DNA of 64,000 bases from Chloroflexota bacterium (lineage in GTDB: Bacteria > Chloroflexota > UBA11872 > VXOZ01), in the NCBI GenBank assembly GCA_965221905.1, contig OZ244922.1, positions 3,072,001-3,136,000 on the forward strand, written 5' to 3'. The position numbers were made by a program, and so were the translations under genes. Shown here piece by piece: positions 6,304-21,379 of this stretch (position 1 is the first letter of the stretch; each line of letters starts with the position of its first letter). Below the pieces are notes generated by a model that was given only the letters and a program-made list of their open reading frames with translations, did not search any database and was not told where the DNA came from.

Positions 6304-7524
6304 ATGGCACTGTCTGCAGAAGAGCAAGCGTTGTTGAATGGCGAAAAGCGCAATCTTCCCTTCCTACCCGCCCTTGGCGGCTGGTACAACGAGGAAGAAG
6401 TGGAAGCGCTGACCCAAGCGCTACGGGAGAGCATGGAATGGCGGGTGGGCTTTACCGGCAACGACATTGCGGAATTCGAGCGGGAATTCGCCGAGTATTG
6501 CGACGTCAAGTACGCATTCGCGGTCAATTCTTGCGGTACCGGCCTCGATGGGGCGATGCAAGCGCTGAATCTCGGTCCTGAAGACGAGGTCATTTTGCCT
6601 GCCATCACGTATATTGCAACCGCCCAGGCAGTCGTGGGCGTGGGCGCAAAGATCGTGCTTGCCGAGTGCCACCCCGATACCTTCAACATCGACCCTGCCG
6701 ACGTGGAGCGCCGCATGACGGCGAATACACGCGCCATTATGCCAGTGCACAACAACGGGCTCTCCGCCGACATGGACGCCCTAGCCGACATTGCCGAGCG
6801 GCATCCGCACGCAGTTCACGGCCCGGCACCGGTAGTTGGCGACGCCGCCCGCGCCGCTGGCGGCGGTTACAAGGGCACGCGCGTGGGCAAGAGAGGCGCG
6901 ATGAACATCTTCAGCTTCCAGACCACCAAGAATATGACCACCCTCGGCGAAGGCGGCATGGTAACAACGGATGACGACGACTATGCCGCCTACATCAACA
7001 GCAGCCGTTCCTTCGGCTGGGGGCTGAAAGGCTGGGGCAGCAATTACCGCCTGACGAAGCTGCAGGCCGTCGCCGGTAGGATCCAGCTTGCACGGCTCGA
7101 TGAAATGAACGACTTGCGCCGCGACCGCGCGCTGCTGCTTTCAGCGTGTTTGGCTGACGCGCCCGGCGTGATTGTTCCCCAGACCCCAGCGGGCTACGAC
7201 CACGTGTGGTACGGCTATACGGTCATGCTGGAATCAGAGTGGGCCGGTGAGCCGCGCGATAGGGTTACAGAACACATGCAGTCCGAGTACGGCGTCGGCG
7301 GCGGCGTCATGAATGCCGCGCTTCCCGACTACGACTCTATTCTTAACAAGCTCGGCCATACGCCGGAGGACGTTCCGGTCTCTACCGATATTGGTCGCCG
7401 GCTCTTCTGCCCCTCGCTCCATCCCTTGATGAGCGACGACGACGTGCGCTACGTCGCCGCATCTATCAAGGCAAGCATGCAGGAAGTCTCGGCAACCGTC
7501 GGTGTAGCAGCCGCTGCCGGGTAG
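6304..7524 (+). CDS. DegT/DnrJ/EryC1/StrS family PLP-dependent aminotransferase
   Basis: AVNSCGTGL, GPEDEVILPAITYIAT, IMPVH, SFQTTKNMTTLGEGGMV (PLP lysine), SNYRL. AAGGAG upstream. Confidence 0.9.
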   Translation: MALSAEEQALLNGEKRNLPFLPALGGWYNEEEVEALTQALRESMEWRVGFTGNDIAEFEREFAEYCDVKYAFAVNSCGTGLDGAMQALNLGPEDEVILPAITYIATAQAVVGVGAKIVLAECHPDTFNIDPADVERRMTANTRAIMPVHNNGLSADMDALADIAERHPHAVHGPAPVVGDAARAAGGGYKGTRVGKRGAMNIFSFQTTKNMTTLGEGGMVTTDDDDYAAYINSSRSFGWGLKGWGSNYRLTKLQAVAGRIQLARLDEMNDLRRDRALLLSACLADAPGVIVPQTPAGYDHVWYGYTVMLESEWAGEPRDRVTEHMQSEYGVGGGVMNAALPDYDSILNKLGHTPEDVPVSTDIGRRLFCPSLHPLMSDDDVRYVAASIKASMQEVSATVGVAAAAG

Positions 7525-7827
7525 AACACTATTCGCGGCGTCGCGCGAATCGACAACGGGAAGAACGTTCAATACATGGCTGGGTGGGATGCGCTTAGTG
7601 TTGCGCACACCACCCAGCCCTTGTTTCCCTACGTTATCCTGCCTTAAGAACCCTCGGCGACCGTGCCCGCGCCCCCTCCCGCAGTTGCGTCCATGTTCCG
7701 ATTGCTCTACATTTGGAGAAAAGAGTGAATCTCCCCACATAGTCTTTTGTGTGCGGTTCGGGAAGCAGCATGGCAATAGTCTCGTCTAACCGCCGCATTC
7801 AAGCCTTAGTCAGGATGGCATAGCTCG

Positions 7828-8589
7828 GTGTTGCTCGTTTTCAATGTCTGGCGCAGAGCGCTTGGCATGCATTACTATGACTTCTTCACCATCATCAGAG
7901 GCAACATTCTCTGGGCGCTGCTCTGTTTGCCATACGCGCTCTATACCTACGTTGCCCTTGTGCCGATTATTACGGACTCCGCTGAGACTGCGCGGGACAC
8001 GTCACCGATCTTCCTGGGTATCTCCTATTTGATCGCCTCGCTCGTACTGCTTGCACTCGCCGGACCGGCCACTGCGGCCCTCTATGATTACGCCGCTAGG
8101 TCACTCGCCAGCGAGGCCGTGGACATGCGGACGTACGTGCAGAGCCTCCGCACGCACTTCATCAAAGGGTACCTGCTCGCAGCGCTCGACCTCTTGATCC
8201 TCGCTGCGCTCGTGCTCAACACCTGGTTCTATCTGACGGCGGACATTCCCCAGCTCATGCGCGCACTTAGCATAATCTTCTTCTGGGGCATTGTGTTCTG
8301 GGTCGCAATTCAACCGTATCTCTTCTCCGTAATGATTAGGCTCGACACCTCCGTGCTGCAGACGTTTCGCAACGCCGTCTTGTTGGCGCTCGACAATCTC
8401 GGCGTTACTATCGGCCTTATCGGCGTGCAACTCGTGATGCTTTTCTTCTTCGTCCCGCTCTTCGCCATTGCGTATCCGGTTTTGGGCGGCTCTATCTTTG
8501 CCCATACCCACGTGGGGGTGCTGAACGAGCTCCTTGACCAATACGAGGAAAAGCGCGGCGGCGCAAATCCAGTGCAAAGAGACTCTTGA
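7828..8589 (+). CDS. Integral membrane protein, DUF624/YesL-like
   Basis: About 6 hydrophobic segments and a GPATAALY motif; directly upstream of a sugar-ABC ATPase. Confidence 0.6.
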   Translation: MLLVFNVWRRALGMHYYDFFTIIRGNILWALLCLPYALYTYVALVPIITDSAETARDTSPIFLGISYLIASLVLLALAGPATAALYDYAARSLASEAVDMRTYVQSLRTHFIKGYLLAALDLLILAALVLNTWFYLTADIPQLMRALSIIFFWGIVFWVAIQPYLFSVMIRLDTSVLQTFRNAVLLALDNLGVTIGLIGVQLVMLFFFVPLFAIAYPVLGGSIFAHTHVGVLNELLDQYEEKRGGANPVQRDS

Positions 8590-8599
8590 GGAGGAACGG

Positions 8600-9772
8600 A
8601 TGGCAAACCTCACTCTTGAAGGAGCGACCAAATCGTACAAGAGGCCAAAACCTCAATCTTGGAGGAACATATTCTCGCGAATCCGCGGTGGAGAAGCGTC
8701 CGACGTAGCGGTCGCTGACACTGCTGATACTGAAGAAGACCTGATCTACGCACTCAACGGGCTCGATCTCCAAATCGATGACGGAGAGTCGGTGAGTGTG
8801 CTGGGACCGTCGGGCTGCGGCAAGACTGCTCTGCTACGAATCCTGGCCGGTCTGGAATACTTGGATGGGGGCAAGGTCTTCTTCGATGGGGAAGATATGA
8901 CGACTGTGAGCCCCCAAGACCGCAATGTCGCCATGGTTTTCCAGGACTACGCCCTATACCCCCATTGGGCCGCGCAGGATAACCTGGGATTCTTCTATAA
9001 AACACACCAACGCAAGGACGAGATTCCCGAGCGTGTGCGCTTGACCGCACGGGTCATGGGGCTTGGATTTGAAACGCTCCTCAGCCAGAAGCCGCCCAAA
9101 CTCTCCGGCGGCCAACAGCAGCGTGTGGCTATCGCGCGCGCGATCATTCGCGATCCGCGTGCATTCCTTTTCGATGAACCGCTTTCGAACCTGGACGCAA
9201 CAGTACGCGCGCGTACCCGCGTCGAGATCAAGCGTCTCATCCAGCGATTCGGCATTACCTCGGTCTATGTGACCCACGATCAGGCCGAAGCCTTTACCAT
9301 GGGCGACCGCATCGCCGTGATGCATAAAGGCCGGATTTTGCAGGTAGATAGTCGCAGCCAACTCATCGAACGTCCGCTCAGCCTCTTCGTCGCCGACTTC
9401 ATCACAGTGCCGTCCATGAACTTGCTGCCCGGCGTCGTGTACAGAGAGTACGTGGATACACACGACCGCAAGGTGATACCGCCGCCAATTGTGCTGCATC
9501 AGCATCAGGCCGAGAGAGTAACTATTGGCATTCGCCCTATGGACGTGGTGCTGCGCCCCGAGAACGAAGAGGACACGATTCCCGCCAAGATCGAGACTGT
9601 GGAACCGCTGATGAGCGACCGCGCGGTGCTACTTACGGTGCGCGTTGGGCGCTACACCTACCGTATCCAGCGCCCGCAGACCGAGCATCACGAGCCCGAC
9701 TCGCTCATCTTCATGGAGATCCCCGCCCACTGCCAGCACGTCTTCGATAGCCAGGGACGACGGGTGAATTAG
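8600..9772 (+). CDS. Carbohydrate ABC transporter ATP-binding protein (MalK/MsiK-like)
   Basis: Walker A GPSGCGKT, VAMVFQDYALYPH, LSGGQQQRVAIARA, FLFDEPLSNLD, YVTHDQAEA. Confidence 0.92.
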   Translation: MANLTLEGATKSYKRPKPQSWRNIFSRIRGGEASDVAVADTADTEEDLIYALNGLDLQIDDGESVSVLGPSGCGKTALLRILAGLEYLDGGKVFFDGEDMTTVSPQDRNVAMVFQDYALYPHWAAQDNLGFFYKTHQRKDEIPERVRLTARVMGLGFETLLSQKPPKLSGGQQQRVAIARAIIRDPRAFLFDEPLSNLDATVRARTRVEIKRLIQRFGITSVYVTHDQAEAFTMGDRIAVMHKGRILQVDSRSQLIERPLSLFVADFITVPSMNLLPGVVYREYVDTHDRKVIPPPIVLHQHQAERVTIGIRPMDVVLRPENEEDTIPAKIETVEPLMSDRAVLLTVRVGRYTYRIQRPQTEHHEPDSLIFMEIPAHCQHVFDSQGRRVN

Positions 9773-11298: not shown

Positions 11299-11326
11299 TT
11301 GACAAACTGAAATGCTGTGCAATACT
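11299..11326 (+). promoter_or_regulatory. sigma70-type promoter for the mauE/mauD/Cys-rich peptide cassette
   Basis: TTGACA (11299-11304), 16-nt spacer, TG-n-AATACT (11318-11326). Confidence 0.5.
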
Positions 11327-11413
11327 AAAGGCAATGACACGGAGTACGGGTTGGGTAAGGGTAAGTGAAGGTGCTCTCGGAAGAGCCTTCACAGTGAGGT
11401 GGAGGGTAGCCCA

Positions 11414-11957
11414 GTGCTTGAAAATAGCGTTCTTTTCCTCCAACTGCTGGTAGGCGGCGTTTTTCTCCTGGCTGCCGCCGCCAAGTTGCTGCACTTGTCC
11501 GAGTTCAAAGCGGCGGTGCGGGGATTTGGTCTCGTGCCGGCGCCCGCGCTCCAGCCGGTGAGTGGCGCAATCCCTCTGTTTAGAACTCCTCTGTGGCACA
11601 TTGCTCATCACGGGCATTGCCGTGGCATGGGCCGTGTGGTTGTCCATCGGCTTGGTAACCGTCTTCATCGTCGCTTCCTCCGTTGCCTTGGCTCAGGGCC
11701 GGGGCGGGATCGACTGCTACTGCTTTGGCGCGGGCGGCCAACCGCTGGGCACGGCCACCATCATCAAGCAGGTCATTATCCTCGCATTGCTCACACTCCT
11801 GGCGCCCACTGCCGGTTCCACCTGGTTCCTGGATAGCGGATCTACCGCCAACGTAAGCGGCGCGCTCGGGGCCGTCGTGTTTGTAATCGGCGCTTGGGCT
11901 ATTGCCTTTGTGGCCGCTGAACTGCTGCGGCTGCGCACTATTTCACAATCAAACTGA
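11414..11957 (+). pseudogene. mauE: MauE/DoxX family membrane protein interrupted by a +1 frameshift (or sequencing error)
   Basis: First frame: LLVGGVFLLAAAAKL..F..AVRGFGLVP...AIPL. Second frame: LELLCGTLLI...GIDCYCFG (MauE-type CxCFG). Removing one T from TTT at 11579-11581 gives one 180-aa ORF. GGAGG precedes GTG 11414. Confidence 0.8.
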
Positions 11958-11991
11958 GGGAGAGAAACGCGCCCTGAGATGGCGAAACGAT

Positions 11992-12020
11992 CCGTCATTC
12001 CGACGCAAGCCGGAATCCAG
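11992..12020 (+). repeat. GTCATTCC-N-GGAATCCA REP-like hairpin
   Basis: CCGTCATTCCGACGCAAGCCGGAATCCAG; relatives at 17381, 19481, 36088, 37665. Confidence 0.7.
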
Positions 12021-12028
12021 AGAAACCG

Positions 12029-12052
12029 GTAGCGTAGGTTTGCAACCTGCGC
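12029..12052 (+). repeat. GTAG-type REP-like hairpin
   Basis: GTAGCGTAGGTTTGCAACCTGCGC, matches 2289-2312 in opposite orientation. Confidence 0.65.
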
Positions 12053-12086
12053 GCGGTCTCCGGTGAGCGTAGGAGGCACAAGAGGC

Positions 12087-12659
12087 ATGGAAGGCATCTG
12101 GCTGGCATCGTACCTGTTGCAATGGGTCCTCATTGGGCTGCTCGCCTTCGTCGTCATCGGCCTCATGCGGCAGATCGGGGAGTTGCGCCTGCGCGTGGGG
12201 GAGGAGCGTGAGAACGGTATCGCGGTCGGTGACAAAGCGCCGCTCTTCCAGGGAGAGGGTCTCAATGGGGCGGTTGACTTGGAGACCATGGCTGGCGAAC
12301 GGCTGCTGGTGCTCTTCGTCCATCCCACCTGCCCGCCCTGCAAGGAACTCTTCAAAAGCCTCAACGGAGAGCCGGAGCACATAGAACAACAAGGCGTGAG
12401 GATGGTGCTCGTAAGCGGCGGCAGCCGTGAGCAGAACCGGGAGATGATTGCAGAATTCAAGCTCTCGTGTCCGCTGGTGATCCAGCAGGAGCATGAGATA
12501 GCCGACCTGTACGGCAGTAGTTGGACGCCGTACGGCTTCGTGGTCGATGCCGATGGCAAAGTCTCTGGAAAGGGGGTGGTAAACGATGTGCATGTGCTAG
12601 GCGAGCTGCTCGCTACTGATGTGACGACCGGCAGCTTGCCAAAGAATGAGAGCGTGTGA
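12087..12659 (+). CDS. mauD: MauD-like membrane-anchored thioredoxin-fold protein
   Basis: N-terminal TM (SYLLQWVLIGLLAFVVIGLMRQIG), GDKAPLF, FVHPTCPPCKEL, cis-Pro TPYGFVVDADGKV..KGVVN: MauD-type architecture, next to a mauE-like gene. Confidence 0.8.
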   Translation: MEGIWLASYLLQWVLIGLLAFVVIGLMRQIGELRLRVGEERENGIAVGDKAPLFQGEGLNGAVDLETMAGERLLVLFVHPTCPPCKELFKSLNGEPEHIEQQGVRMVLVSGGSREQNREMIAEFKLSCPLVIQQEHEIADLYGSSWTPYGFVVDADGKVSGKGVVNDVHVLGELLATDVTTGSLPKNESV

Positions 12660-12762
12660 CATCCGCGCACAGAGCGTGGAGCCCGAACACCAAGTGTAAA
12701 GATGTCCCACGCGATAGTCGCATCACAGACGCAATGCATGCAAAGCATGGGAGGTAAAACCC

Positions 12763-13107
12763 ATGGACAAGCTTATTGCGAACGCGAGTGTTGGCCTAGC
12801 AAGAGCCAGCATGAACCGGCGTGGTTTTTTGGGCAGGCTGGCCCGAGCAACAGGTGGCGCTGCCGTTCTTACCGGTCTCGCTGCCGTAACGGTGTCTGCC
12901 AGCAGTCACTGTTGGGGGCCTTACTTCTGCGAGACGCATTCCGACAATTACTGTGGGGCGTGTGGCGAGAATTGCTCCCCTAGCAGCAGGCCGTATGTCC
13001 GGAGGCACCACGGCGTACATTGTCTCTCGGGAGAGAGGTGCCCATCATGGACCTCTTACGAGGGCTGTGGCTGCACTATTCCCAACCATCCTTGCCCTGG
13101 TGAATAG
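12763..13107 (+). CDS. Twin-arginine-exported cysteine-rich mini-protein (MauA-like leader, unrecognised mature domain)
   Basis: GGAGG RBS; NRRGFLG Tat motif, hydrophobic stretch, VSA cleavage site; ~68-aa mature part with 10 Cys and 2 Trp. Confidence 0.8.
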   Translation: MDKLIANASVGLARASMNRRGFLGRLARATGGAAVLTGLAAVTVSASSHCWGPYFCETHSDNYCGACGENCSPSSRPYVRRHHGVHCLSGERCPSWTSYEGCGCTIPNHPCPGE

Positions 13108-13267
13108 GGTTTCTTGGTGTTGACCGCACAACCGCAAGCCGGGTAAGCGATATGCAGAGCGCCTTCGGAGAGGAAACCTTCTACTGTCTGGGGCGCTCTG
13201 CGGTATCCAATCGGTTTGAGTGTGTTTAGGCGATTGTCGCGAGAACCGATACGAATGGAGTAGTGCG

Positions 13268-14515
13268 ATGCTTTCACGCCGAACGTTGATTGTAGGAACA
13301 GCGGCAATAACGGCGGGGTGTGGCTTTCTCAAGTCTCCGCTTACAGCGCCGGGGTCACCACAGCCCACTGCATTGAACTGGGTGTCGGGCGCGCATCTCG
13401 GTCTCAGTGACAGACTTGGAACATTACGCCCTAAGGAGATACTCCAACAGTCTATAACTGCCCTACAAGATGACGAAGAAAATCCGCATGGCCCCAAACG
13501 CGGGCGATACGAATTAACCCTGCGTTACGTAGAGTATTCAGCGATCCCGAACGACTATCCGGCGTGGCTCAATGAGATCGAAGCCGACCTTGTCACCGTC
13601 CATGCCGGAAACGCGAAGGCGCTGGCGGAAAGCGGCCTCTGGCTGCCCTTGGACCAGTTCCTAGGCGCGGCTGACCCGGAGCTTGAGGCGGCATTCTTTC
13701 CAGGCGCGGTCGAGCAGTTCCGGCACGGGGCGCTCTACGCTCTGCCGGTGGATGCCCGTCCGCTGATGCTCTACTACGACGCTGAGCACTTTGCTCGGGA
13801 GCAAGTCCCTCCTCCGACTGACGGTAGCTGGAACTGGGACGACTTAGTAGAGAATGCAGTGAAGTTGACAAGGCGACGGGAGGACGGGACCCCGGCCCGC
13901 TGGGGCTTAGGTGCACACAGCAATCAAGTCTGGTGGGCGCTGTGGCAAAACCAGGCGGAGGCGGTAGATCCGGACACCTTGCAGTGCCGGTTGCAGGAAC
14001 CGGAGGCGATTGAAGCCTTGCAGTTCATTCACGGGTTGATACACTCGCACCGCGTCTCGCCGCCAAAGGTGAATTGGGCGTCGCCGCCGGCAATGGTATA
14101 TGGGGTACCCCCGGCGCGCCCAAATTACGGCGACTATCGGTTGGCGGCGCTGCCTCGCGGCAAGGTGCAGGCTGTGCCCGTGTTCGGCGACATGGGAATT
14201 GCGATTGCCGCCCGGACGGAGAATGCGGAAACGGCGTACACGGCGCTAAAAGGACTGGTGCACGCCCTGCAACCCCGCGTGGGCGTGCCAGCAGAGAGGG
14301 AGGCAGTGGCGCGGCTTGGGGAATATCGGACCGACCTCCGACCCGAAGAGATCGCGGCGCTCCAGCGTTCAATGGAACATGGGCGCGGCATGCCGCAGAA
14401 TGTGCCGGCGTTGTTCGCCATGCAAAGTGTCGTCGAGGGTCTCGTGCGCGGTGACGACGTGGCAACCGTGGTCAACGAGGCCTGTTCCGTTGTTCGTGAG
14501 TACCAGCAGGCCTAA
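13268..14515 (+). CDS. Extracellular solute-binding lipoprotein (SBP family 1-like), paralogue 1
   Basis: SRRTL Tat-like motif and TAGC lipobox; LPLDQF, GALYALP, MLYYD, WNWDDLVENAVKLT typical of sugar-binding proteins. Confidence 0.8.
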   Translation: MLSRRTLIVGTAAITAGCGFLKSPLTAPGSPQPTALNWVSGAHLGLSDRLGTLRPKEILQQSITALQDDEENPHGPKRGRYELTLRYVEYSAIPNDYPAWLNEIEADLVTVHAGNAKALAESGLWLPLDQFLGAADPELEAAFFPGAVEQFRHGALYALPVDARPLMLYYDAEHFAREQVPPPTDGSWNWDDLVENAVKLTRRREDGTPARWGLGAHSNQVWWALWQNQAEAVDPDTLQCRLQEPEAIEALQFIHGLIHSHRVSPPKVNWASPPAMVYGVPPARPNYGDYRLAALPRGKVQAVPVFGDMGIAIAARTENAETAYTALKGLVHALQPRVGVPAEREAVARLGEYRTDLRPEEIAALQRSMEHGRGMPQNVPALFAMQSVVEGLVRGDDVATVVNEACSVVREYQQA

Positions 14516-14729: not shown

Positions 14730-15985
14730 ATGCTTTCACGCCGAGCGTTGACAGTCAGCGCGGCAGCCCTATGTGCCGTTGGCTGCGGTCAGCTTGAGTC
14801 GCTAGTGTCCGGACCGGTCACGCTCCACGAGACTGAGCTCGTGTGGGTCTGGAGGCCATTCCTCGGCATTGGCAATCAGCAGCAAATAGTCGACGCCCTA
14901 AATGAAGACCCAGCGAATCCGCTTGGCCCGCCGGGCGGGCGTTACCGTCTCCAAGTTCGCGCTATACAGCAGGCGCCCCGCTGGGACGACGTGGATGCAT
15001 GGCACGAGCTCAAGGCGGACCTGCTCACAGTGTCCGTGGAGGAGGCAAGGTTACTGGGGAAATGGGGGTGTTGCATGCTCTGGATCGGTTCAGCGACGCC
15101 AATGAAAGTGCGCTCAACGCGGTGTTCTTTCCGGGGGTACTGAATCAGTTTCGGGCGCAAGGGGCGCTCTATGCGCTGCCGGTTAGCGCCTTGCCCGTGA
15201 TGGTCTATTACGACAGAGTGTATTTCGCACAGCGGGGAGTGCCGCCGGTTGACAGCAGTTGGGGCTAGGACGAACTGGCAGAAAATGCGGCGAAGCTAAC
15301 TAATCGCGGGCAAGACGGCGTAGTGCGGCGTTGGGGATTGCGGGCGCATAGTAAGCTCTGGTGGGCGCTGTGGCAAAACGATGCGGACGTAGCGGACCCG
15401 GCAGCGTTGCAGTGTCGTTTGCAGGAACCGGCCGCAATCGAAGCGCTGCAATTTGTGTGGAAACTCCTGCACACCTTGCAGGTGTCGCCACTTGCTCTCG
15501 GCATGGATTTGATGAAGGTGACCCCGCCACCGGCTATGGTCTACAATAACCCGCCGCTGCGCCCGAGTTTTGGCTCGTACGGTTTGGCTCAGATTCCCCA
15601 AGGCAAGACGCAGGCCGTGCCGGTGAGGGCAGGCGTTGGGCTTGCTATCGCCGCGGGAACACAAAGTCCTGAGACGGCCTATACGGCCCTCCAGGGTCTG
15701 GTGCACGCCATGCAGCGGCATGCCACCGTGCCCGCAACCAGGGACGGAATCGAACGGCTCGGAGAATTTCAGCCCGGCATCCGCTCCGACGAAATCCAGG
15801 CAATTCAGCGTTCCATGGCGGCTGAACGGGAGATGCCGCGACTGCCGCAAGGCAAGCCGGAGTTGTACGCCATGAGTGCGATAGCAGAGGGTCTGGTACG
15901 GGGCGAAGACGTTTCAACCGTGGTCAACCAGGCCTGTTCCGTTTTGCGGGAGTACCAGCAAACAGGTGGTCCATCGGGTGGGTGA
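14730..15985 (+). pseudogene. Solute-binding lipoprotein paralogue 2, disrupted
   Basis: Starts MLSRRAL...AVGC. One G missing in the run at 15056-15059 (restores LLGEMGVLHALDRF). In-frame TAG at 15266-15268 where paralogues have TGG (WxWD). Homology continues to 15985. Confidence 0.85.
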
Positions 15986-17319
15986 CTATGGAACTTCGCC
16001 GGAGAATCAGGCTAACACGCCGAACGCTGATAGCAAGCACAGCGGTGCTTGCGGCCGGGTGTGGCGGGCTGGATATTCCATTTCCGGTGCTGGGCGCTCC
16101 GAAGATTACCCCATTGACCTGGGTTTCGCACATAATAACCGGTCTCGTTCCTGGGCACCTTGTGGCGTCGCCTGAGGAAAAACTCCGGCGGATAGAGCGA
16201 GAACTGGCGGAAGACAGTGACAGCGCCTTCGGTCCCACGCGCGGGCGCTACAGCCTGACGCTGCAATACTTTGAGCGCTACGCGGGCCCCTACTCGGATC
16301 GCGATGCTGAGGAGTACCTCAAGCCGGAGTACTTGGCGTCGTGGCTAATGGAAATTGGCGCGGACCTCGTAACCGTCTGGCCTCAGGAGGCGCGCGCATT
16401 AGGGGAGCGGGGCATATTGCTGCCTCTGGACCGGTTCAGCGGCGATGGGTCTGGGCTCAGCGGCGAATACTATTCGTCTGTGCTCGACAATTATCGAGAG
16501 AAGGGCGCGCTCTACGCGCTGCCGGTAGGCGCGGACCCGCTGATGCTCTCTTACGATGCGGACTACTTTGCAAGCATGGGGCTGGCGCCGCCAAACTCTA
16601 CGTGGGACTGGGATATCCTGGTGGAGAACGCCCTGAAGCTGACGCAGCGGGAGGAGGACGGCACGGTATCGCGCTGGGGGTTGATAGCGCACAATAGTTC
16701 TATTTGGTGGGCTTTGTGGCAAAATGAAGCGGAGCTAGCCGACGCGCTCACGGCGCAATGCCGCTTGCAGGAACCGGCCGCCGTCAAAGCGCTAGAGTAC
16801 ATTTGGGATTTGATGCACACCCATGGCGTCTCGCCCGCGGCCGCCGGAAATGATCTGGATAGGTTTGTCTATGGTGAAGTGGACTCCCCGCCGGCTATGA
16901 TATATTTCCCTGTGCTCTACCTCTCGGGGGGCGCCAAATATCGTAGAGCAGAGCTGCCCCGGGGCAAGGTGCCGAGCACGCAGGTCAATCCCTACCCGGG
17001 GATTGCGATTGCCGCGCGAACCGCCAATCCCGAGGCAGCCTACACCGCGCTCAGGGGACTCGTGAAAACTATGCAACCGCATGTCAGAGTGCCTACCGAG
17101 CGAGAGGCGGTGGCGCGTCTTGGGGAATTCCGGTGGGACCTCCAACCGGAGGAAGTTATCGCGATACAACAGTCTATGGAATACGGACGCGTGAGGCCGC
17201 AGGATGAGGCCCAAGTTCGCGCCATGTTCCGCTTGGTAGAGGCGCTCGCACGCGGCGACGACGTGACCTCCGCGGTCAATCAAGGCTGCTCAGTCCTCTA
17301 CGAGAACCAGCGGACGTGA
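15982..17319 (+). CDS. Extracellular solute-binding lipoprotein, paralogue 3
   Basis: TRRTL and AAGC lipobox; shares GRYxL, GALYALPV, WWALWQN, QCRLQEP, AYTAL.GLV, RGDDV..VN..CSV with paralogues 1 and 2. Confidence 0.8.
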   Translation: MTMELRRRIRLTRRTLIASTAVLAAGCGGLDIPFPVLGAPKITPLTWVSHIITGLVPGHLVASPEEKLRRIERELAEDSDSAFGPTRGRYSLTLQYFERYAGPYSDRDAEEYLKPEYLASWLMEIGADLVTVWPQEARALGERGILLPLDRFSGDGSGLSGEYYSSVLDNYREKGALYALPVGADPLMLSYDADYFASMGLAPPNSTWDWDILVENALKLTQREEDGTVSRWGLIAHNSSIWWALWQNEAELADALTAQCRLQEPAAVKALEYIWDLMHTHGVSPAAAGNDLDRFVYGEVDSPPAMIYFPVLYLSGGAKYRRAELPRGKVPSTQVNPYPGIAIAARTANPEAAYTALRGLVKTMQPHVRVPTEREAVARLGEFRWDLQPEEVIAIQQSMEYGRVRPQDEAQVRAMFRLVEALARGDDVTSAVNQGCSVLYENQRT

Positions 17320-17592: not shown

Positions 17593-19398
17593 CTAGTGCA
17601 CCACACTCTCCATATACTCCAAGGACTGGTGCCTAAAGTACGTGTCGTAGAGTGCTGCGTAGTGGCCGCCTGCGGCCAGCAGCGACCGGTGGGTGCCTTC
17701 TTCCAGGATGCGGCCGCTGTCCAGCACCAGAATGCGGTCGGCTTGCTGCACGGTATAGAGGCGGTGCGCGATCACTATTGAGGTGCGGTTGCGCATGATG
17801 GCTTCCACACCGTCTTGAATTTGCACCTCGGTAAAGGGGTCAACGCTCGCCGTTGCTTCGTCCAAGATGAATACCGCCGGATCGTGCAGCATCACGCGTG
17901 CCAGGGCCACAAGTTGACGCTGACCCATAGAAAGCCGTCCGCCGCGCTCGCCGACGTCGGTATCCAGCCCGTTGGGCAAGTCGGCAAGCCAATTGCCCCC
18001 CGCAATGTGTTCCACTGCACGCAGTACGTCTTCCTCAGTGGCTTCCGGCTTGCCGTACCGGATATTCTCGCCCACGGTGCCGCTAAAGAGAAATGGCGAC
18101 TGCGGCACGATGCCAATCTGACGGCGGTACGAAGCCAGCTCAAAAGTGCGGATATCGCGCCCGTCCACGAGCAATTGTCCCTCTTGATACTCGTAGAATC
18201 GCGCTACAAGCCGTACGATGCTCGTCTTGCCGGAGCCCGTATGTCCAACCAGCGCGATGGATTCGCCCGGTTGAATCTCTAGGTCAAAATCCGGCAACAC
18301 AATCTCACTGGGCTGGTAGCTGAAGCGCACCTTCCGAAACTCGAACCCTCCTTGCAGGTCGTCGGCAGGAACATCACCGGTCTGCACGACGCGGGGCTCA
18401 GCGTCGATCAGCCCAAACACCCGCTCACTGGCGGCGAGCCCATTTTGAAACTGACTCCAAAACGAAGCGATCTGCGTGAGCGGAAACCAGAAGAACATGA
18501 GCGCTTGAATGAAGAGATACCAATCGCCCACGCTCATAGCGCCGGAGGCTGTTTTCAGACCGCCGAAATAGACGACGACTGCGGCGCCAAGACCGGCTGT
18601 GGCGTTGAACACCGGGAAGAAAGTATTGAGCACGATCCCTTGCCGGAAGTTTACACGGTACGCTTGCTGGTTGATGCGAACGAAGTCATCATGCACCGCC
18701 TTCTCTTGGCGGAATACCTTAGCTACGGCGATACCGCTAATCGACTCCTCGATGTGGGCGTTGACCTGCGCCATGATGCGCCGCGAATGCAGCGAGGTCT
18801 CACGGGCAATGCGTCGGAACAGGAGCGAAATAGCTGCTATAAACGGCGCCATCGCCACCGTAATCAACCCCAGTTGCAGATTGATAACGAGCAACACGCC
18901 TCCCATCAGCAGCACCAGCATCACCTGACTGATCAAATTCATCGTAAGAGAGACCGTCTCAGCGAATCCATCCGTGTCCGAGGAAACACGGCTGACGAGT
19001 TTGCCGGTCGGCTGATCGTCGAAGAACGAGAGGTCGTGCCCCATGGTTGCATTGAACGCGTCCTCCCGAATCTTCAGAATAACGTTGCCAATCGCGACGG
19101 CGCCGAGCCATTGACGGAGAAAATTGAGGCCCCATGAGACGCTGCTCAAGAGCAGGATAAAAATTATGAGGAGCACCATCGTCTGCGCGACGGGATTGTC
19201 GACGACCTGGTCAATGCCGCGGGAGATGAGGATCGGCACCGCCGTATCGGTCAGCGAACCGACAAAGACAGCGCCTGCCACCAATAGCATTGGACGCAAT
19301 TGCGGACGGAAGTATTTCACAATACGACTTAGGAGCGCCCGATCGCTGTACTCGCGGTCGTACGCGTCTGCGTCCAGGCCGTCCATCACAAAACCCAT
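17593..19398 (-). CDS. Heterodimeric ABC exporter subunit (TMD+NBD)
   Basis: Six-TM domain, GHTGSGKT, LSMGQRQL, ILDEATASVD, IAHRL. Confidence 0.92.
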   Translation of the reverse strand: MGFVMDGLDADAYDREYSDRALLSRIVKYFRPQLRPMLLVAGAVFVGSLTDTAVPILISRGIDQVVDNPVAQTMVLLIIFILLLSSVSWGLNFLRQWLGAVAIGNVILKIREDAFNATMGHDLSFFDDQPTGKLVSRVSSDTDGFAETVSLTMNLISQVMLVLLMGGVLLVINLQLGLITVAMAPFIAAISLLFRRIARETSLHSRRIMAQVNAHIEESISGIAVAKVFRQEKAVHDDFVRINQQAYRVNFRQGIVLNTFFPVFNATAGLGAAVVVYFGGLKTASGAMSVGDWYLFIQALMFFWFPLTQIASFWSQFQNGLAASERVFGLIDAEPRVVQTGDVPADDLQGGFEFRKVRFSYQPSEIVLPDFDLEIQPGESIALVGHTGSGKTSIVRLVARFYEYQEGQLLVDGRDIRTFELASYRRQIGIVPQSPFLFSGTVGENIRYGKPEATEEDVLRAVEHIAGGNWLADLPNGLDTDVGERGGRLSMGQRQLVALARVMLHDPAVFILDEATASVDPFTEVQIQDGVEAIMRNRTSIVIAHRLYTVQQADRILVLDSGRILEEGTHRSLLAAGGHYAALYDTYFRHQSLEYMESVVH

Positions 19399-19480
19399 TG
19401 GCCGGACCTCATTTGCGGTGCAGAACGGTAGTTTCCGCGTTCACAGCCCCCGCTCCTTCTGCCGTGCTTGTGACAAATTG

Positions 19481-19514
19481 AAGATGGATTCCCGCTTTCG
19501 CGGGAATGACGGAT
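19481..19514 (-). repeat. GTCATTCC-N-GGAATCCA REP-like hairpin
   Basis: AAGATGGATTCCCGCTTTCGCGGGAATGACGGAT, exact reverse complement of 36088-36121. Confidence 0.85.
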
Positions 19515-19576
19515 TGCTAATCCGCTTCTCTTCATTGCAAGAGTCCTGTCTTACATGCTGCAAGGGTCACTGTCCA

Positions 19577-21379
19577 CTACTCTCCAACCACCGTCGCAGG
19601 CATTGCGGCAGCGTAGCGTTCGTCCCGGTGGGCAAAGATATTGCGGTAGGCCGGACTGCGAGCCATCAATTCCTCGTGCGTACCTTGATCCTCTAAAGCC
19701 CCGCCGCGCAGCACAAGAATGCGGTCGGCCCAGCGAATCTGCGATAGGCGGTGCGTTATTATGAATGTCGTCCGCCCGTGCAGGATGTTGCGCAGAGCGC
19801 GTTGAATCTGGTCTTCAGTCGCGCTATCGATTGCACTGGTCGAATCATCGAGCACCAGAATACGCGGGTCGGCCAGGAACGCGCGCGCAATGGCGATGCG
19901 TTGACGTTGTCCGCCGGAGAGCGTCACGCCGCGTTCACCCACCACCGTGTCGTACCCATCCTTAAAGCTCGTGATAAAGTCATGGGCTTGGGCCTGCTTT
20001 GCTACCGCTTCAATTTCCTCGCGGGTGACCGGTCGGCGCACCCCGAAGGCGATATTTTCCGCCAGCGTGCGCGAAAAGAGGAAGACATCCTGATCGATGG
20101 TGGCAATCTGCGAGCGCAGCGACTCCATCGACCATACGCGCACGTCCACGCCGTCGATCAACACGCGCCCTCCCGAGACCTCGTAGATGCGGTTGATGAG
20201 ACGGGTGAGCGTAGACTTGCCGGAACCGGTCTGTCCCACAATCGCTATCGTCTCACCCGGCTTAGCGCGAAAACTAATGTCCTTGAGTGTATTGGAGTCG
20301 TGGTAGGCAAATGAAACGTTGTCGAACTCCACCTCACCGTCAATCGGCTTCTCAATGCCGGCCCGGTTCTCGTCTATCTCCGTCTCTGCGTTAAGTATGG
20401 CAAGGATGCGTTCCGATCCTGCCGTGCCGAGTTTGACGAGAGAGAACGCAAAAATGGAAACGAATGTTGGAAATCGCAGCATGCCGAGCAAGCCCATGAA
20501 TGTAATAACCTGGGCGATTGACAGAGCGTCATTTGTAAAGAGATAGAGCGCGTGCGCGAGGCCGAGCGCCAACGTAAAGGAAAACATGAGCAGCGGCAGG
20601 TAGAGTGCCTGGATCTTGCCCTGTTTGACGAAGAGATCGCGGTAGTTTTCCGCCTTGACACGAAAACGGCCGTATTCCTGCTTTTCCTGGGCGTTTGACT
20701 TTACCACTTCAATGCCGGCAATCGACTCTGTGAGTGTAGCGTTCATCACGCCAAACTGCGCCCGCAGCCCGCCGGCAACCGGGGTGAGCCGTCGCAAGTA
20801 CCCACGCAAGGCAATGAGAAAGAGAAGGAGGAATAGTATCGGAATGGGCAAGAGTGCTGTATGCACGATTAGGCCGATAGCAACAATGGGAGCCACCATG
20901 TTGACGAGCCACTCCGATAGCAAGAGGAGGCCGGGATTGACCATATAGTTGAGTTGCCGCACGTCGTTGGTAGCACGCGCCATGATGTCGCCAACACGCT
21001 GTCGTCCGTGATAGGTCTGACTTTTGCCCAGCAAGTTTACGTAGAGTTCGTCGCGTACATCCCGTTCGATACGCAGCGCAACTATCTCAGCCGTATAGTT
21101 CGCGAAGAGCTGCATTACGCCTCTGAGCAGACTGATGCCGACAATAGCCAGGGCGAAGCCAAGCAGCTCGCTGACCTGGGCATCTGCCTGCGCGACGGCA
21201 CCGAAGGCATTCCCCATTAAGATCGGCACCTGCACTGCGGCGACCACGACTCCCGCGCGTAAGACGGTACCTACCACCACGTGCACCGGGTAACGCTTGG
21301 CATGACTGACGAGCCAACGCAGAACGGAAGAGCGATCATACGTATGTTCGGTATCAGGCGTAAACTCGCGATTCTTCAC
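19577..21379 (-). CDS. Heterodimeric ABC exporter subunit (TMD+NBD, degenerate Walker B)
   Basis: GQTGSGKS, LSGGQRQRIAIARA, LVLDDSTSAID (D replaces catalytic E as in TM287-type heterodimers). Confidence 0.92.
   Translation of the reverse strand: MKNREFTPDTEHTYDRSSVLRWLVSHAKRYPVHVVVGTVLRAGVVVAAVQVPILMGNAFGAVAQADAQVSELLGFALAIVGISLLRGVMQLFANYTAEIVALRIERDVRDELYVNLLGKSQTYHGRQRVGDIMARATNDVRQLNYMVNPGLLLLSEWLVNMVAPIVAIGLIVHTALLPIPILFLLLFLIALRGYLRRLTPVAGGLRAQFGVMNATLTESIAGIEVVKSNAQEKQEYGRFRVKAENYRDLFVKQGKIQALYLPLLMFSFTLALGLAHALYLFTNDALSIAQVITFMGLLGMLRFPTFVSIFAFSLVKLGTAGSERILAILNAETEIDENRAGIEKPIDGEVEFDNVSFAYHDSNTLKDISFRAKPGETIAIVGQTGSGKSTLTRLINRIYEVSGGRVLIDGVDVRVWSMESLRSQIATIDQDVFLFSRTLAENIAFGVRRPVTREEIEAVAKQAQAHDFITSFKDGYDTVVGERGVTLSGGQRQRIAIARAFLADPRILVLDDSTSAIDSATEDQIQRALRNILHGRTTFIITHRLSQIRWADRILVLRGGALEDQGTHEELMARSPAYRNIFAHRDERYAAAMPATVVGE

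What the first reader, a model, noticed from the sequence alone, without database searches (positions are those of the whole stretch)
11299..13107. mauE-mauD cassette serving a novel Tat-exported 10-cysteine mini-protein instead of an amine dehydrogenase
Seen: promoter, mauE-like, mauD-like (CPPC), then a 114-aa ORF with a ~46-aa Tat leader (MDKLIANASVGLARASMNRRGFLGRL...) and a ~68-aa core holding 10 Cys, 5 His and 2 Trp. Established: in methylamine dehydrogenase clusters the order is mauB-E-D-A; MauE/MauD mature the disulfide-rich MauA, whose TTQ cofactor needs MauG. Here the core is about half the length of MauA, I see no MauA motifs in it, and no beta-propeller large subunit or di-heme MauG is in the window. 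Inference: the MauDE disulfide machinery has been repurposed to fold and export a small disulfide-rich peptide (toxin-, defensin- or metal-binding-like), a RiPP-like system I cannot match to a described pathway.
Basis: partly seen in the sequence, partly recalled or inferred. Interest (0 to 1): 0.85.

Follow-up and report, generated by a model that had tools for sequence, protein, structure and literature searches.

The report
Disulfide cassette for secreted cysteine-rich mini-protein
A small gene cassette in a Chloroflexota genome pairs a disulfide-forming enzyme couple with an exported, highly variable cysteine-rich mini-protein that has nothing to do with methylamine metabolism and may dock into the neighbouring binding lipoprotein.

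Summary
The observation mostly holds. A promoter-like site, a MauE-like gene, a MauD-like CPPC gene and a 114-aa twin-arginine ORF with a 10-Cys core are there. But this mauE copy is frameshifted, and the core has 6 His, not 5.

The 99.6%-complete genome has no MauA, MauB or MauG (controls 86, 87). It does have DsbB and TatC.

The mini-protein family is confined to one genus.
- The leader is near-invariant and the core hypervariable, with 8 or 10 Cys.
- The core folds confidently into a three-stranded sheet with no clear PDB match.
- MauE never occurs in the genus without it.
- Its leader resembles the MauA leader.

All 24 copies are followed by an orphan sugar-type binding lipoprotein. Arrays repeat the unit [mauD 3' remnant–mini-protein–SBP]. 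A co-fold supports binding: 0.86 against a best control of 0.00. A control weakens the supporting variability argument.

Published work already shows MauE as a general DsbB-like enzyme and mauE/mauD beside ≥8-Cys precursors. I call this a new variant of a known kind.

The parts
11299..11326 (+). promoter-like site TTGACA-16-AATACT (TG before the -10)
   Evidence: 10 of 12 matches; 1 site found against 0.6 +/- 0.8 in 50 shuffles. This is a consensus match only.
11399..11580 (+). mauE-like gene, 5' piece (frame 1), up to the frameshift; carries the TM1 Lys (AAAAKLLHL)
   Evidence: PF07291 positions 5-55, 30.4 bits; one extra base relative to the paralogues (CTGTTTAGAA against GTA-TTGGAA); reproduced in an X2 contig.
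11562..11957 (+). mauE-like gene, 3' piece (frame 2), with the TM2 Glu (LELLCG) and the CXC-F-G motif (DCYCFG)
   Evidence: PF07291 positions 54-126, 39.9 bits. The motif was read and compared with the active-site description in the preprint.
11988..12024 (+). short repeat element with a hairpin (TTCCGAC-GCAA-GCCGGAA) in the mauE-mauD spacer
   Evidence: contig depth 6,000-33,000 over 11940-12087 in three runs, with many different flanks; 8 copies at up to 6 mismatches in the own genome.
12087..12659 (+). mauD-like membrane-anchored thioredoxin-fold protein with a CPPC motif (alternative GTG start at 12063)
   Evidence: AhpC-TSA and Redoxin. TIGR02661 MauD 65.8 bits (cut-off 188.6); best plasmid hits are annotated mauD. 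RNA-library contigs of a relative cover 12086-12370 and 12405-12538.
12763..12900 (+). leader of the mini-protein precursor: 18-residue n-region, RRGFLGRL, h-region, VSA cleavage-type site
   Evidence: near-invariant across 35 sequences. TIGR01409 16.3 bits (cut-off 16.7); aligns to MauA leaders including the n-region.
12901..13107 (+). core of the mini-protein (68 aa, 10 Cys) plus stop codon
   Evidence: hypervariable with a conserved Cys frame and even Cys counts; pLDDT of 90 or more, three strands; no clear PDB fold match.
13094..13120 (+). weak terminator-like hairpin at the end of the mini-protein gene
   Evidence: 3 such sites in the region against 2.0 +/- 1.4 in shuffles, so not above chance.
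13268..14515 (+). first downstream binding lipoprotein (SBP_bac_1; RR plus lipobox signal), the predicted partner of the core
   Evidence: PF01547; distant to sugar SBPs; an SBP follows 24 of 24 mini-protein genes; co-fold 0.86 against 0.00.
14730..15985 (+). SBP paralogue broken into two frames (14730-15143 and 15323-15985)
   Evidence: the same N-piece and C-piece split is seen in the paralogous array near 2.71 Mb.
15988..17319 (+). further SBP paralogue of the array

Best explanation
This is one of three paralogous copies of an accessory oxidative-folding cassette.

Proposed mechanism:
1. The third gene makes a precursor with a MauA-type twin-arginine leader.
2. The precursor is exported by Tat and cut after VSA. 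This step is inferred.
3. Its roughly 68-residue core is locked by five disulfides. The membrane-anchored MauD-like CPPC protein introduces them, and the DsbB-like MauE (CXC motif, quinone-linked) re-oxidises MauD. This is inferred from published work on MauE.
4. The product is a three-stranded beta mini-protein with a conserved Cys frame and hypervariable loops.

In this copy mauE is frameshifted. The intact paralogue at about 2.716 Mb would have to act in trans.

The variable core travels together with the binding-lipoprotein gene that follows it, behind a constant segment made of the mauD 3' end and the leader. The core most likely docks into that lipoprotein's cleft as a cognate pair. Whether the pair is toxin and immunity, signal and receptor, or a stable subunit pair is open.
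For: Families and motifs. MauE as a DsbB substitute with a CXC-F-G site: preprint 10.64898/2026.03.05.709764, Results read in full. The window has DCYCFG.

Not methylamine dehydrogenase: with positive controls.

Accessory and dedicated:
- DsbB is present.
- Among 17 genus genomes, MauE is in 10 and the mini-protein in 12. MauE never occurs without it, and 5 genomes lack both.
- All MauE copies in this genome sit in the three cassettes.

Disulfides: 8 or 10 Cys in 32 of 35 sequences. The 3 odd counts are in frameshifted or truncated entries.

Fold: core pLDDT of 90 or more.

Leader and core:
- The own-genome paralogues are 90-98% identical in DNA over mauE, mauD and the leader, and about 45% over the core.
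- Leader pN 0.16 and pS 0.53; core pN 0.45.
- The leader matches MauA leaders: hhalign probability 91.7%, 30 columns, and 0 of 200 n-region shuffles reach the score.

Same triad elsewhere in the phylum.

SBP link:
- 24 of 24 copies are followed by an SBP, and 23 of 24 are preceded by at least the mauD 3' end.
- Core distances track SBP distances (r = 0.84-0.85). Leader distances do not (r = 0.27-0.52).
- Co-fold runs scored 0.90, 0.01 and 0.86, median 0.86, against a best control of 0.00. In the tool's calibration 58 of 80 solved complexes and 2 of 110 mismatched pairs reached the mark. Partner pLDDT was at least 63 and run agreement at least 3% of contacts. My own alignments were used.

TatC is present. 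A precedent for a bacteriocin operon with its own BdbA/BdbB is sublancin (PMC6391423, passages).
Against: - No experiment supports any step.
- mauE is broken in this copy, and a second copy has an in-frame TAA.
- The Tat assignment rests on the motif. TIGR01409 scores 16.3, just under its 16.7 cut-off.
- Disulfide pairing was not read from the model.

Against the SBP pairing:
- One of three co-fold runs gave 0.01.
- The variability of the contact positions (entropy 2.09 against 1.06) is not specific. Eight SBP paralogues with no mini-protein gene show the same cleft-to-rest ratio, 1.67 against 1.75.
- The core-SBP distance correlation is as strong for non-contact positions, so plain linkage can explain it.
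- The SBP family is present in 17 of 17 genus genomes, including the 5 without the mini-protein.
- The sister-genus triad has no SBP downstream.
- The SBPs resemble sugar binders.
Confidence: 0.6

Rival explanations
1. MauE and MauD here are a general extracytoplasmic disulfide system, for example for the many binding lipoproteins that carry two invariant Cys. The mini-protein is merely one neighbouring substrate or a hitch-hiker.
For: - The preprint argues that MauE is a generalist.
- The SBPs have invariant C240 and C406 and always lie downstream.
- MauE occurs in 89 of 401 sampled genomes of the phylum. That tally includes two unpublished genomes, G145 and G227.
Against: - The genome has DsbB.
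- Five genus genomes keep the SBP family but lack MauE.
- MauE is never found without the mini-protein gene, in 10 of 10 genomes.
- The triad recurs without SBPs in a sister genus.
Confidence: 0.15
2. The core is a metal- or cluster-binding small protein (Cys/His-rich, HiPIP- or copper-site-like) that is loaded in the cytoplasm. That would explain the Tat route.
For: - It has a Tat-type leader, 8-10 Cys and 2-9 His per core.
- A His precedes the first Cys in at least 90% of sequences, 1-3 residues after the predicted cleavage site.
Against: - Cys counts are always even and change in pairs.
- A disulfide-forming pair is genetically tied to it.
- I saw no CxxCxxC-type cluster motif when reading the alignment.
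- The His is replaced by Tyr in 2 of 35 sequences.
Confidence: 0.1
3. This particular copy is a decaying relic. With mauE frameshifted, the window cassette is no longer functional as a unit.
For: - The frameshift is reproduced in an X2 contig.
- A second copy has a TAA in mauE.
- Other loci show truncated or interrupted mauD.
- A broken SBP lies in the same array.
Against: - mauD and the mini-protein ORF are intact, with Shine-Dalgarno-like GGAGG/GGGAGG upstream.
- One intact mauE remains in the genome.
- In arrays of relatives, one mauE-mauD pair heads three or four mini-protein genes, so action in trans is the norm.
Confidence: 0.12
4. The ORF is a miniaturised MauA, that is, a quinoprotein small subunit.
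For: It has the same gene position after mauE-mauD and a MauA-like leader.
Against: - No PF02975 match (control).
- Only the RR stretch aligns.
- Trp is not conserved.
- There is no MauB or MauG.
Confidence: 0.02

Closest known systems
mauE-mauD-mauA of methylamine dehydrogenase clusters (Paracoccus denitrificans NC_008688.1; Cupriavidus NZ_CP080768.1)
   Same: Same gene order: MauE, MauD, then a small disulfide-rich exported protein. MauD is the best match for the window's thioredoxin-fold gene. The leaders are similar, including the n-region.
   Different: The mature part is unrelated to MauA. It is half the size, has no conserved Trp pair, and the genome has no MauB, MauG or amicyanin context.
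MauE as a generalist DsbB-like disulfide-forming enzyme (Gonzalez et al., bioRxiv 10.64898/2026.03.05.709764)
   Same: The CXC motif followed by F-G, plus a Lys and a Glu in the first two helices, are present here. MauE occurs without MauA.
   Different: In this genus MauE is not the general pathway. DsbB is present, and MauE is strictly tied to one small-protein family. The paper's main text does not mention substrates, neighbouring genes or Chloroflexota. I could not see its supplements.
decRiPPter candidate RiPP families with mauE/mauD in Streptomyces (Kloosterman et al. 2020, PMC7794033)
   Same: mauE, and once mauD, lie beside a predicted precursor with at least 8 Cys, with no other mau genes (passages).
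   Different: Those are in a different phylum and remain uncharacterised. I could not compare their precursor sequences, which are in S2 Table; supplements are closed. Tat leaders, arrays and SBP partners are not described in the passages I read.
Sublancin operon sunA-sunT-bdbA-sunS-bdbB of Bacillus subtilis SPbeta
   Same: It is a secreted disulfide-containing antimicrobial peptide encoded with its own thioredoxin-like and DsbB-like oxidoreductases (PMC6391423, passages).
   Different: It has a Sec/ABC-type leader and an S-glycosylation. It uses the DsbB family rather than MauE, has two disulfides, and its immunity protein SunI is not an SBP.
Polymorphic toxin-immunity arrays (CDI/Rhs orphan modules; recalled, not tested)
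   Same: A constant 5' part, a swapped variable 3' part together with the next gene, and arrays of extra units each keeping a stub of upstream homology.
   Different: No toxicity is shown. Each unit is a complete small gene, the partner has a solute-binding fold, and the 'stub' belongs to mauD.

Membership tests
MADH/AADH light chain (MauA, PF02975) | significant match to the light-chain profile | tested here: not met
   No PF02975 hit at E up to 1. Six-frame genome search: 0 matches among 18 scored candidates. The profile gives 181 bits on the Paracoccus plasmid. hhalign to two MauA proteins aligns only 20-21 columns of the RR stretch, with probability 1% and 21%.
MADH/AADH light chain (MauA, PF02975) | two conserved Trp that form TTQ | tested here: not met
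   No Trp column is conserved in 35 sequences. Cores hold 0-3 Trp.
MADH/AADH light chain (MauA, PF02975) | large beta-propeller subunit and MauG in the genome | tested here: not met
   PF06433 gave 0 matches (control 702 bits). PF03150 gave 0 matches, with controls ringing in 4 genomes.
MADH/AADH light chain (MauA, PF02975) | long Tat leader of MauA type, gene placed after mauE-mauD | tested here: met
   Gene order. Leader profile against 2 MauA leaders: probability 91.7%, P 7.8e-7, and 0 of 200 n-region shuffles reach the score.
MauE (PF07291), DsbB-like | profile match above the cut-off and a CXC-F-G loop | tested here: met
   30.4 and 39.9 bits against a cut-off of 27. DCYCFG was read. The motif is as described.
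MauE (PF07291), DsbB-like | one intact reading frame | tested here: not met
   The gene is split over two frames by one extra base. An intact paralogue lies at G000:C1:2716030-2716620.
MauD (TIGR02661 equivalog) | score over the equivalog cut-off | tested here: not met
   65.8 bits against 188.6. It is MauD-like: the best tblastn hits in plasmids are annotated mauD at 28-33% identity over 87-95% of the query.
MauD (TIGR02661 equivalog) | thioredoxin fold with CxxC and an N-terminal membrane anchor | tested here: met
   AhpC-TSA and Redoxin hits. CPPC and the hydrophobic stretch IWLASYLLQWVLIGLLAFVVIGL were read.
Tat substrate | twin-arginine signal and a Tat machine in the genome | tested here: inconclusive
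   The NRRGFLGRL motif is present. TIGR01409 scores 16.3 bits against a cut-off of 16.7. TatC scores 209 bits. Export was not tested.
RiPP | conserved leader with a variable core | tested here: met
RiPP | leader-dependent modifying enzyme that makes a non-proteinogenic structure | tested here: inconclusive
   Only the disulfide-forming pair is conserved beside it. I found no other enzyme gene shared by the loci, and the flanks differ. Chemistry is not testable here.
Polymorphic toxin-immunity module | variable part and the adjacent gene swapped as a unit, and arrays with homology stubs | tested here: met
Polymorphic toxin-immunity module | toxicity, and neutralisation by the cognate partner | not testable with these tools
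   There is only a co-fold in support of binding.

The most novel reading that the evidence does not exclude
The genus carries a polymorphic two-partner system. The first partner is a hypervariable, five-disulfide mini-protein, exported behind a MauA-type leader and oxidised by its own MauD/MauE. The second is a cognate surface lipoprotein of solute-binding fold that takes the whole mini-protein into its cleft. Units of core plus SBP are shuffled behind a constant leader. The roughly ten SBP paralogues without a mini-protein gene would then be orphan partners. In this reading a sugar-type binding protein has been recruited as an immunity protein or receptor for a secreted protein toxin or kin signal.
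Probability: 0.3. Interest if true: 0.85.

Novelty: new variant of a known kind. Interest (0 to 1): 0.62.

Why it matters
- It gives the newly recognised MauE pathway a concrete, genetically dedicated natural substrate class outside methylamine metabolism.
- The MauA-type leader has been kept while the cargo was exchanged. That makes the role of this unusually long leader testable.
- The mini-proteins are a compact disulfide scaffold with no clear PDB match and naturally hypervariable loops.
- If the predicted docking into the neighbouring binding lipoproteins is real, it would be an unusual use of the solute-binding fold, as a protein-recognition partner in a shuffled, polymorphic system.

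Tried and rejected
- **PDB by sequence (profile):** only Tat-leader-like hits with E above 1.
- **Fold searches:** Foldseek against PDB gave a best E of 0.2. VIA-align wide gave a best Z of 3.4. Laterosporulin scored Z 2.8 and Foldseek E 1.8, too weak to claim.
- **ESM Atlas:** no usable hit.
- **Pfam on the core:** only Anti-LPS-SCYG at E 0.3, which I dismissed.
- **dN/dS on the core:** synonymous sites are saturated (pS 0.79). Only 3 close pairs exist, with omega undefined, 0.99 and 0.17, so there is no verdict on positive selection.
- **Expression:**
  - The one RNA-library run (X1) has contigs only over mauD-like sequence of a relative.
  - It has none over the mini-protein gene. DNA in the library cannot be excluded, and a part without cover proves nothing.
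- **Contact-position variability as support for co-diversification:** rejected as specific evidence after the control with non-linked SBPs.
- **Partial Mantel test:**
  - Core against contact positions given the rest gives r = 0.44, p = 0.0002.
  - The reverse partial is equally high at 0.50, so there is no interface-specific signal.
- **Permeases:** none of the 18 BPD_transp_1 matches lies beside an SBP array.
- **VKOR:** none found.
- **Earlier notes of this scan:** the single hit, a BubE protease elsewhere in the genome, is unrelated.
- **Papers pairing SBP, immunity protein, bacteriocin, lipoprotein and disulfide:** 0 papers.
- **Papers with MauE, twin-arginine and disulfide-rich:** nothing relevant among the 15 listed of 38.
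- **Papers with MauE and Chloroflex\*:** only decRiPPter was relevant among the 15 listed of 33.
Full report
**What is in the window**

- Between 11299 and 13107 on the + strand lie four features:
  - a promoter-like site;
  - a MauE-family gene;
  - a MauD-like thioredoxin-fold gene with a CPPC motif;
  - a 114-codon ORF.
- The ORF's product starts MDKLIANASVGLARASMNRRGFLGRL, has a VSA|SS cleavage-type site, and ends in a 68-residue core with 10 Cys, 6 His and 2 Trp.
- The mauE-like gene is not intact.
  - Pfam positions 5-55 and 54-126 lie in different frames.
  - Against its two paralogues, the window has one extra base near 11575-11580.
  - A contig of run X2 reproduces the stretch without any difference at depth about 97. 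That run may be the window's own source sample. Relatives in run X6 lack the extra base.

**Not methylamine dehydrogenase**

- The genome is a single 3.52-Mb contig, 99.64% complete. It has no match to the light-chain, heavy-chain or MauG/CCP profiles.
- The built-in controls were silent for the first two profiles, so I ran them on the Paracoccus denitrificans mau plasmid. They gave 181 and 702 bits.
- Profile comparison of the mini-protein family with two real MauA proteins aligns only the twin-arginine stretch.
- No Trp is conserved.

**The mini-protein family**

- A search of 5.8 billion protein clusters gave 37 homologues, none carrying a functional name.
- A profile search of 1.84 billion cluster representatives gave only 12.
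- I aligned the window protein with 34 of the 37. I left out P0011, P0031 and P0036, which are partial or from very short contigs.
  - The leader is almost invariant.
  - The core is hypervariable around about eight fixed Cys.
  - Cys counts are 8 or 10 in 32 of 35 sequences. The three odd counts are in frameshifted or truncated entries, and extra Cys appear in pairs. This argues for four or five disulfides rather than metal ligands.
- AlphaFold2 models the core at pLDDT of 90 or more as three long strands and leaves the leader disordered.
- Neither Foldseek (best E 0.2) nor VIA-align (best Z 3.4) finds a clear PDB fold match.

**Distribution and linkage**

- Among 401 sampled genomes of the phylum, the family was found only in the window's genus. 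There was one weak leader-only hit elsewhere. The one named homologue says the phylum is Chloroflexota.
- In the 17 genus genomes, MauE is in 10 and the mini-protein in 12. Five have neither, and none has MauE alone.
- The own genome also has DsbB, no VKOR, and TatC. MauE/MauD therefore looks like an accessory module tied to this protein, not the cell's general pathway.
- The genome holds three paralogous cassettes.
  - Only one has an intact mauE. Besides the window's frameshift, a second copy has an in-frame TAA.
  - Their DNA is 90-98% identical over mauE, mauD, the spacer and the leader, and about 45% over the core.
- Across 20 genes, the leader has pN 0.16 and pS 0.53, so it is conserved at the protein level. 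The core has pN 0.45.
- Identical cores occur behind diverged leaders, which indicates mosaic recombination.

**Relation to MauA and to other genomes**

- The same triad of MauE (CXC-F-G), a CxxC thioredoxin-fold gene and a small RR-leader ORF with many Cys recurs with unrelated cores elsewhere in the phylum.
  - It occurs in a sister genus.
  - One 19.5-kb stretch of another family holds two mauE genes and five such ORFs.
  - In all, I counted such ORFs in 7 of 31 MauE loci inspected within 1.5 kb on each side, not counting one hit I judged spurious.
- A profile of 13 of these leaders aligns to two MauA leaders over 30 columns, including the n-region (probability 91.7%, P 7.8e-7).
- Shuffling the MauA n-region columns gives a score of 16.5 +/- 1.6 against the observed 28.8. 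None of 200 shuffles reaches it.
- So the cassette looks like mauE-mauD-mauA with the leader kept and the cargo replaced. Only two MauA sequences were used.

**The neighbouring binding lipoproteins**

- All 24 mini-protein genes examined are followed within a few hundred bases by a paralogue of one SBP_bac_1 lipoprotein family. These proteins carry an RR motif plus a lipobox signal.
- Of the 24, 23 are preceded by at least the 3' end of mauD.
- In two relatives, one mauE-mauD pair heads arrays of the repeating unit [last 30-40 codons of mauD, mini-protein gene, one or two SBP genes].
- The family has 22 matches in this genome. None lies next to an ABC permease gene.
- It is distantly related to sugar binders (E 1.7e-18 to an arabino-oligosaccharide binder).
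- Over 18 units, core distances track those of the adjacent SBP (r = 0.84-0.85). Leader distances do not (r = 0.27-0.52). Core and SBP therefore move as one unit behind a constant leader.
- A co-fold of the core with its SBP scored 0.90, 0.01 and 0.86 in three runs.
  - The median is 0.86 and the best of three controls is 0.00.
  - In the tool's calibration the mark was reached by 58 of 80 solved complexes and 2 of 110 mismatched pairs.
  - Partner pLDDT was at least 63 and run agreement at least 3% of contacts. My own alignments were used.
  - There were 114-118 contacts drawn from both lobes, which I read as the ligand cleft.

**What weakens the pairing**

- The contact positions are twice as variable as the rest of the SBP. 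But eight paralogues with no mini-protein gene show the same ratio, so this is a property of the family's cleft.
- The distance correlation is no stronger for contact positions than for the rest.
- The SBP family exists in all 17 genus genomes, including the five without the mini-protein.
- The sister-genus triad has no SBP downstream.
- I therefore hold the pairing at roughly one in three to two in five.

**Literature**

- Gonzalez et al. (bioRxiv 10.64898/2026.03.05.709764; abstract and Results read in full, supplements not seen) report three things:
  - MauE replaces DsbB in E. coli;
  - it needs its CXC motif;
  - it co-occurs with MauA in only 10.2% of MauE species.
- Their main text does not mention substrates, neighbouring genes or Chloroflexota.
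- Kloosterman et al. (PMC7794033, passages only) list three Streptomyces candidate RiPP families with mauE, one also with mauD. Each has a precursor with at least 8 Cys and no other mau genes. Their S2 Table could not be read.
- The sublancin operon is a characterised precedent for a secreted peptide encoded with its own BdbA/BdbB (PMC6391423, passages).
- I found no paper on a mini-protein and SBP pair of this kind in the searches.

**Verdict**

- The reading 'MauD/MauE serve a novel Cys-rich exported mini-protein, not an amine dehydrogenase' is well supported.
- The general idea is already in print, so this is a new variant of a known kind.
- The new elements are:
  - the MauA-type leader on foreign cargo;
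  - the genus-specific polymorphic family with a scaffold that has no clear PDB match;
  - the shuffled core-plus-SBP units with a predicted complex.

Noticed in passing
window 11988-12024 (mauE-mauD spacer): A roughly 37-nt element with a hairpin (TTCCGAC-GCAA-GCCGGAA) is covered at depth 6,000-33,000 by contigs with many different flanks in three runs, including an RNA library. The own genome has only 8 copies at up to 6 mismatches. The two sister cassettes carry a related element in the same spacer.
   Followed up: partly
window 14730-15985; also G000:C1:2710472-2711721: An SBP paralogue is split into an N-terminal piece of about 117 aa and a C-terminal piece of about 311 aa in different frames. 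The same split is present in the paralogous array at 2.71 Mb, so the break predates the duplication of the arrays, or is tolerated.
   Followed up: partly
own genome, e.g. G000:C1:943605-947992, 1095974-1103270, 1565358-1566677, 3500911-3502239: An expanded family of RR-plus-lipobox SBP_bac_1 lipoproteins gives 22 matches in this genome and 2-25 in each of the 17 genus genomes. None lies beside an ABC permease gene, and the cleft positions are hypervariable.
   Followed up: partly
L027 (G406:C1:2998000-3013500), L028 (G406:C1:1988500-2005500), L029 (G405:C1:642000-654500): These are arrays of up to four mini-protein genes. Each is preceded by a 29-41-codon remnant of the mauD 3' end and followed by one or two SBP genes, all behind a single full mauE-mauD pair.
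   Followed up: yes
L025 (G197:C1:294000-307000) about 7509-8680: mauD is interrupted by an insert of about 1.1 kb between its N- and C-terminal halves. I did not examine the insert.
   Followed up: no
L067 (G027:C2:91000-110500): In another family of the phylum, two mauE genes and five RR-leader ORFs of 90-138 aa with very Cys-dense cores lie within 19.5 kb. Several of the leaders carry an FDRL(T/I)K motif like the FDDMVEK of Paracoccus MauA.
   Followed up: partly
window 17593-21379 (- strand): Two adjacent ABC exporter genes (ABC_membrane plus ABC_tran, 600-601 aa each) lie just beyond the SBP array. I did not test for any link to the cassette.
   Followed up: no
window 7828-9772: A multi-pass membrane protein with no Pfam hit at E up to 1e-5 overlaps the start of a MalK-type ABC ATPase gene. 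There is no permease gene beside them.
   Followed up: no
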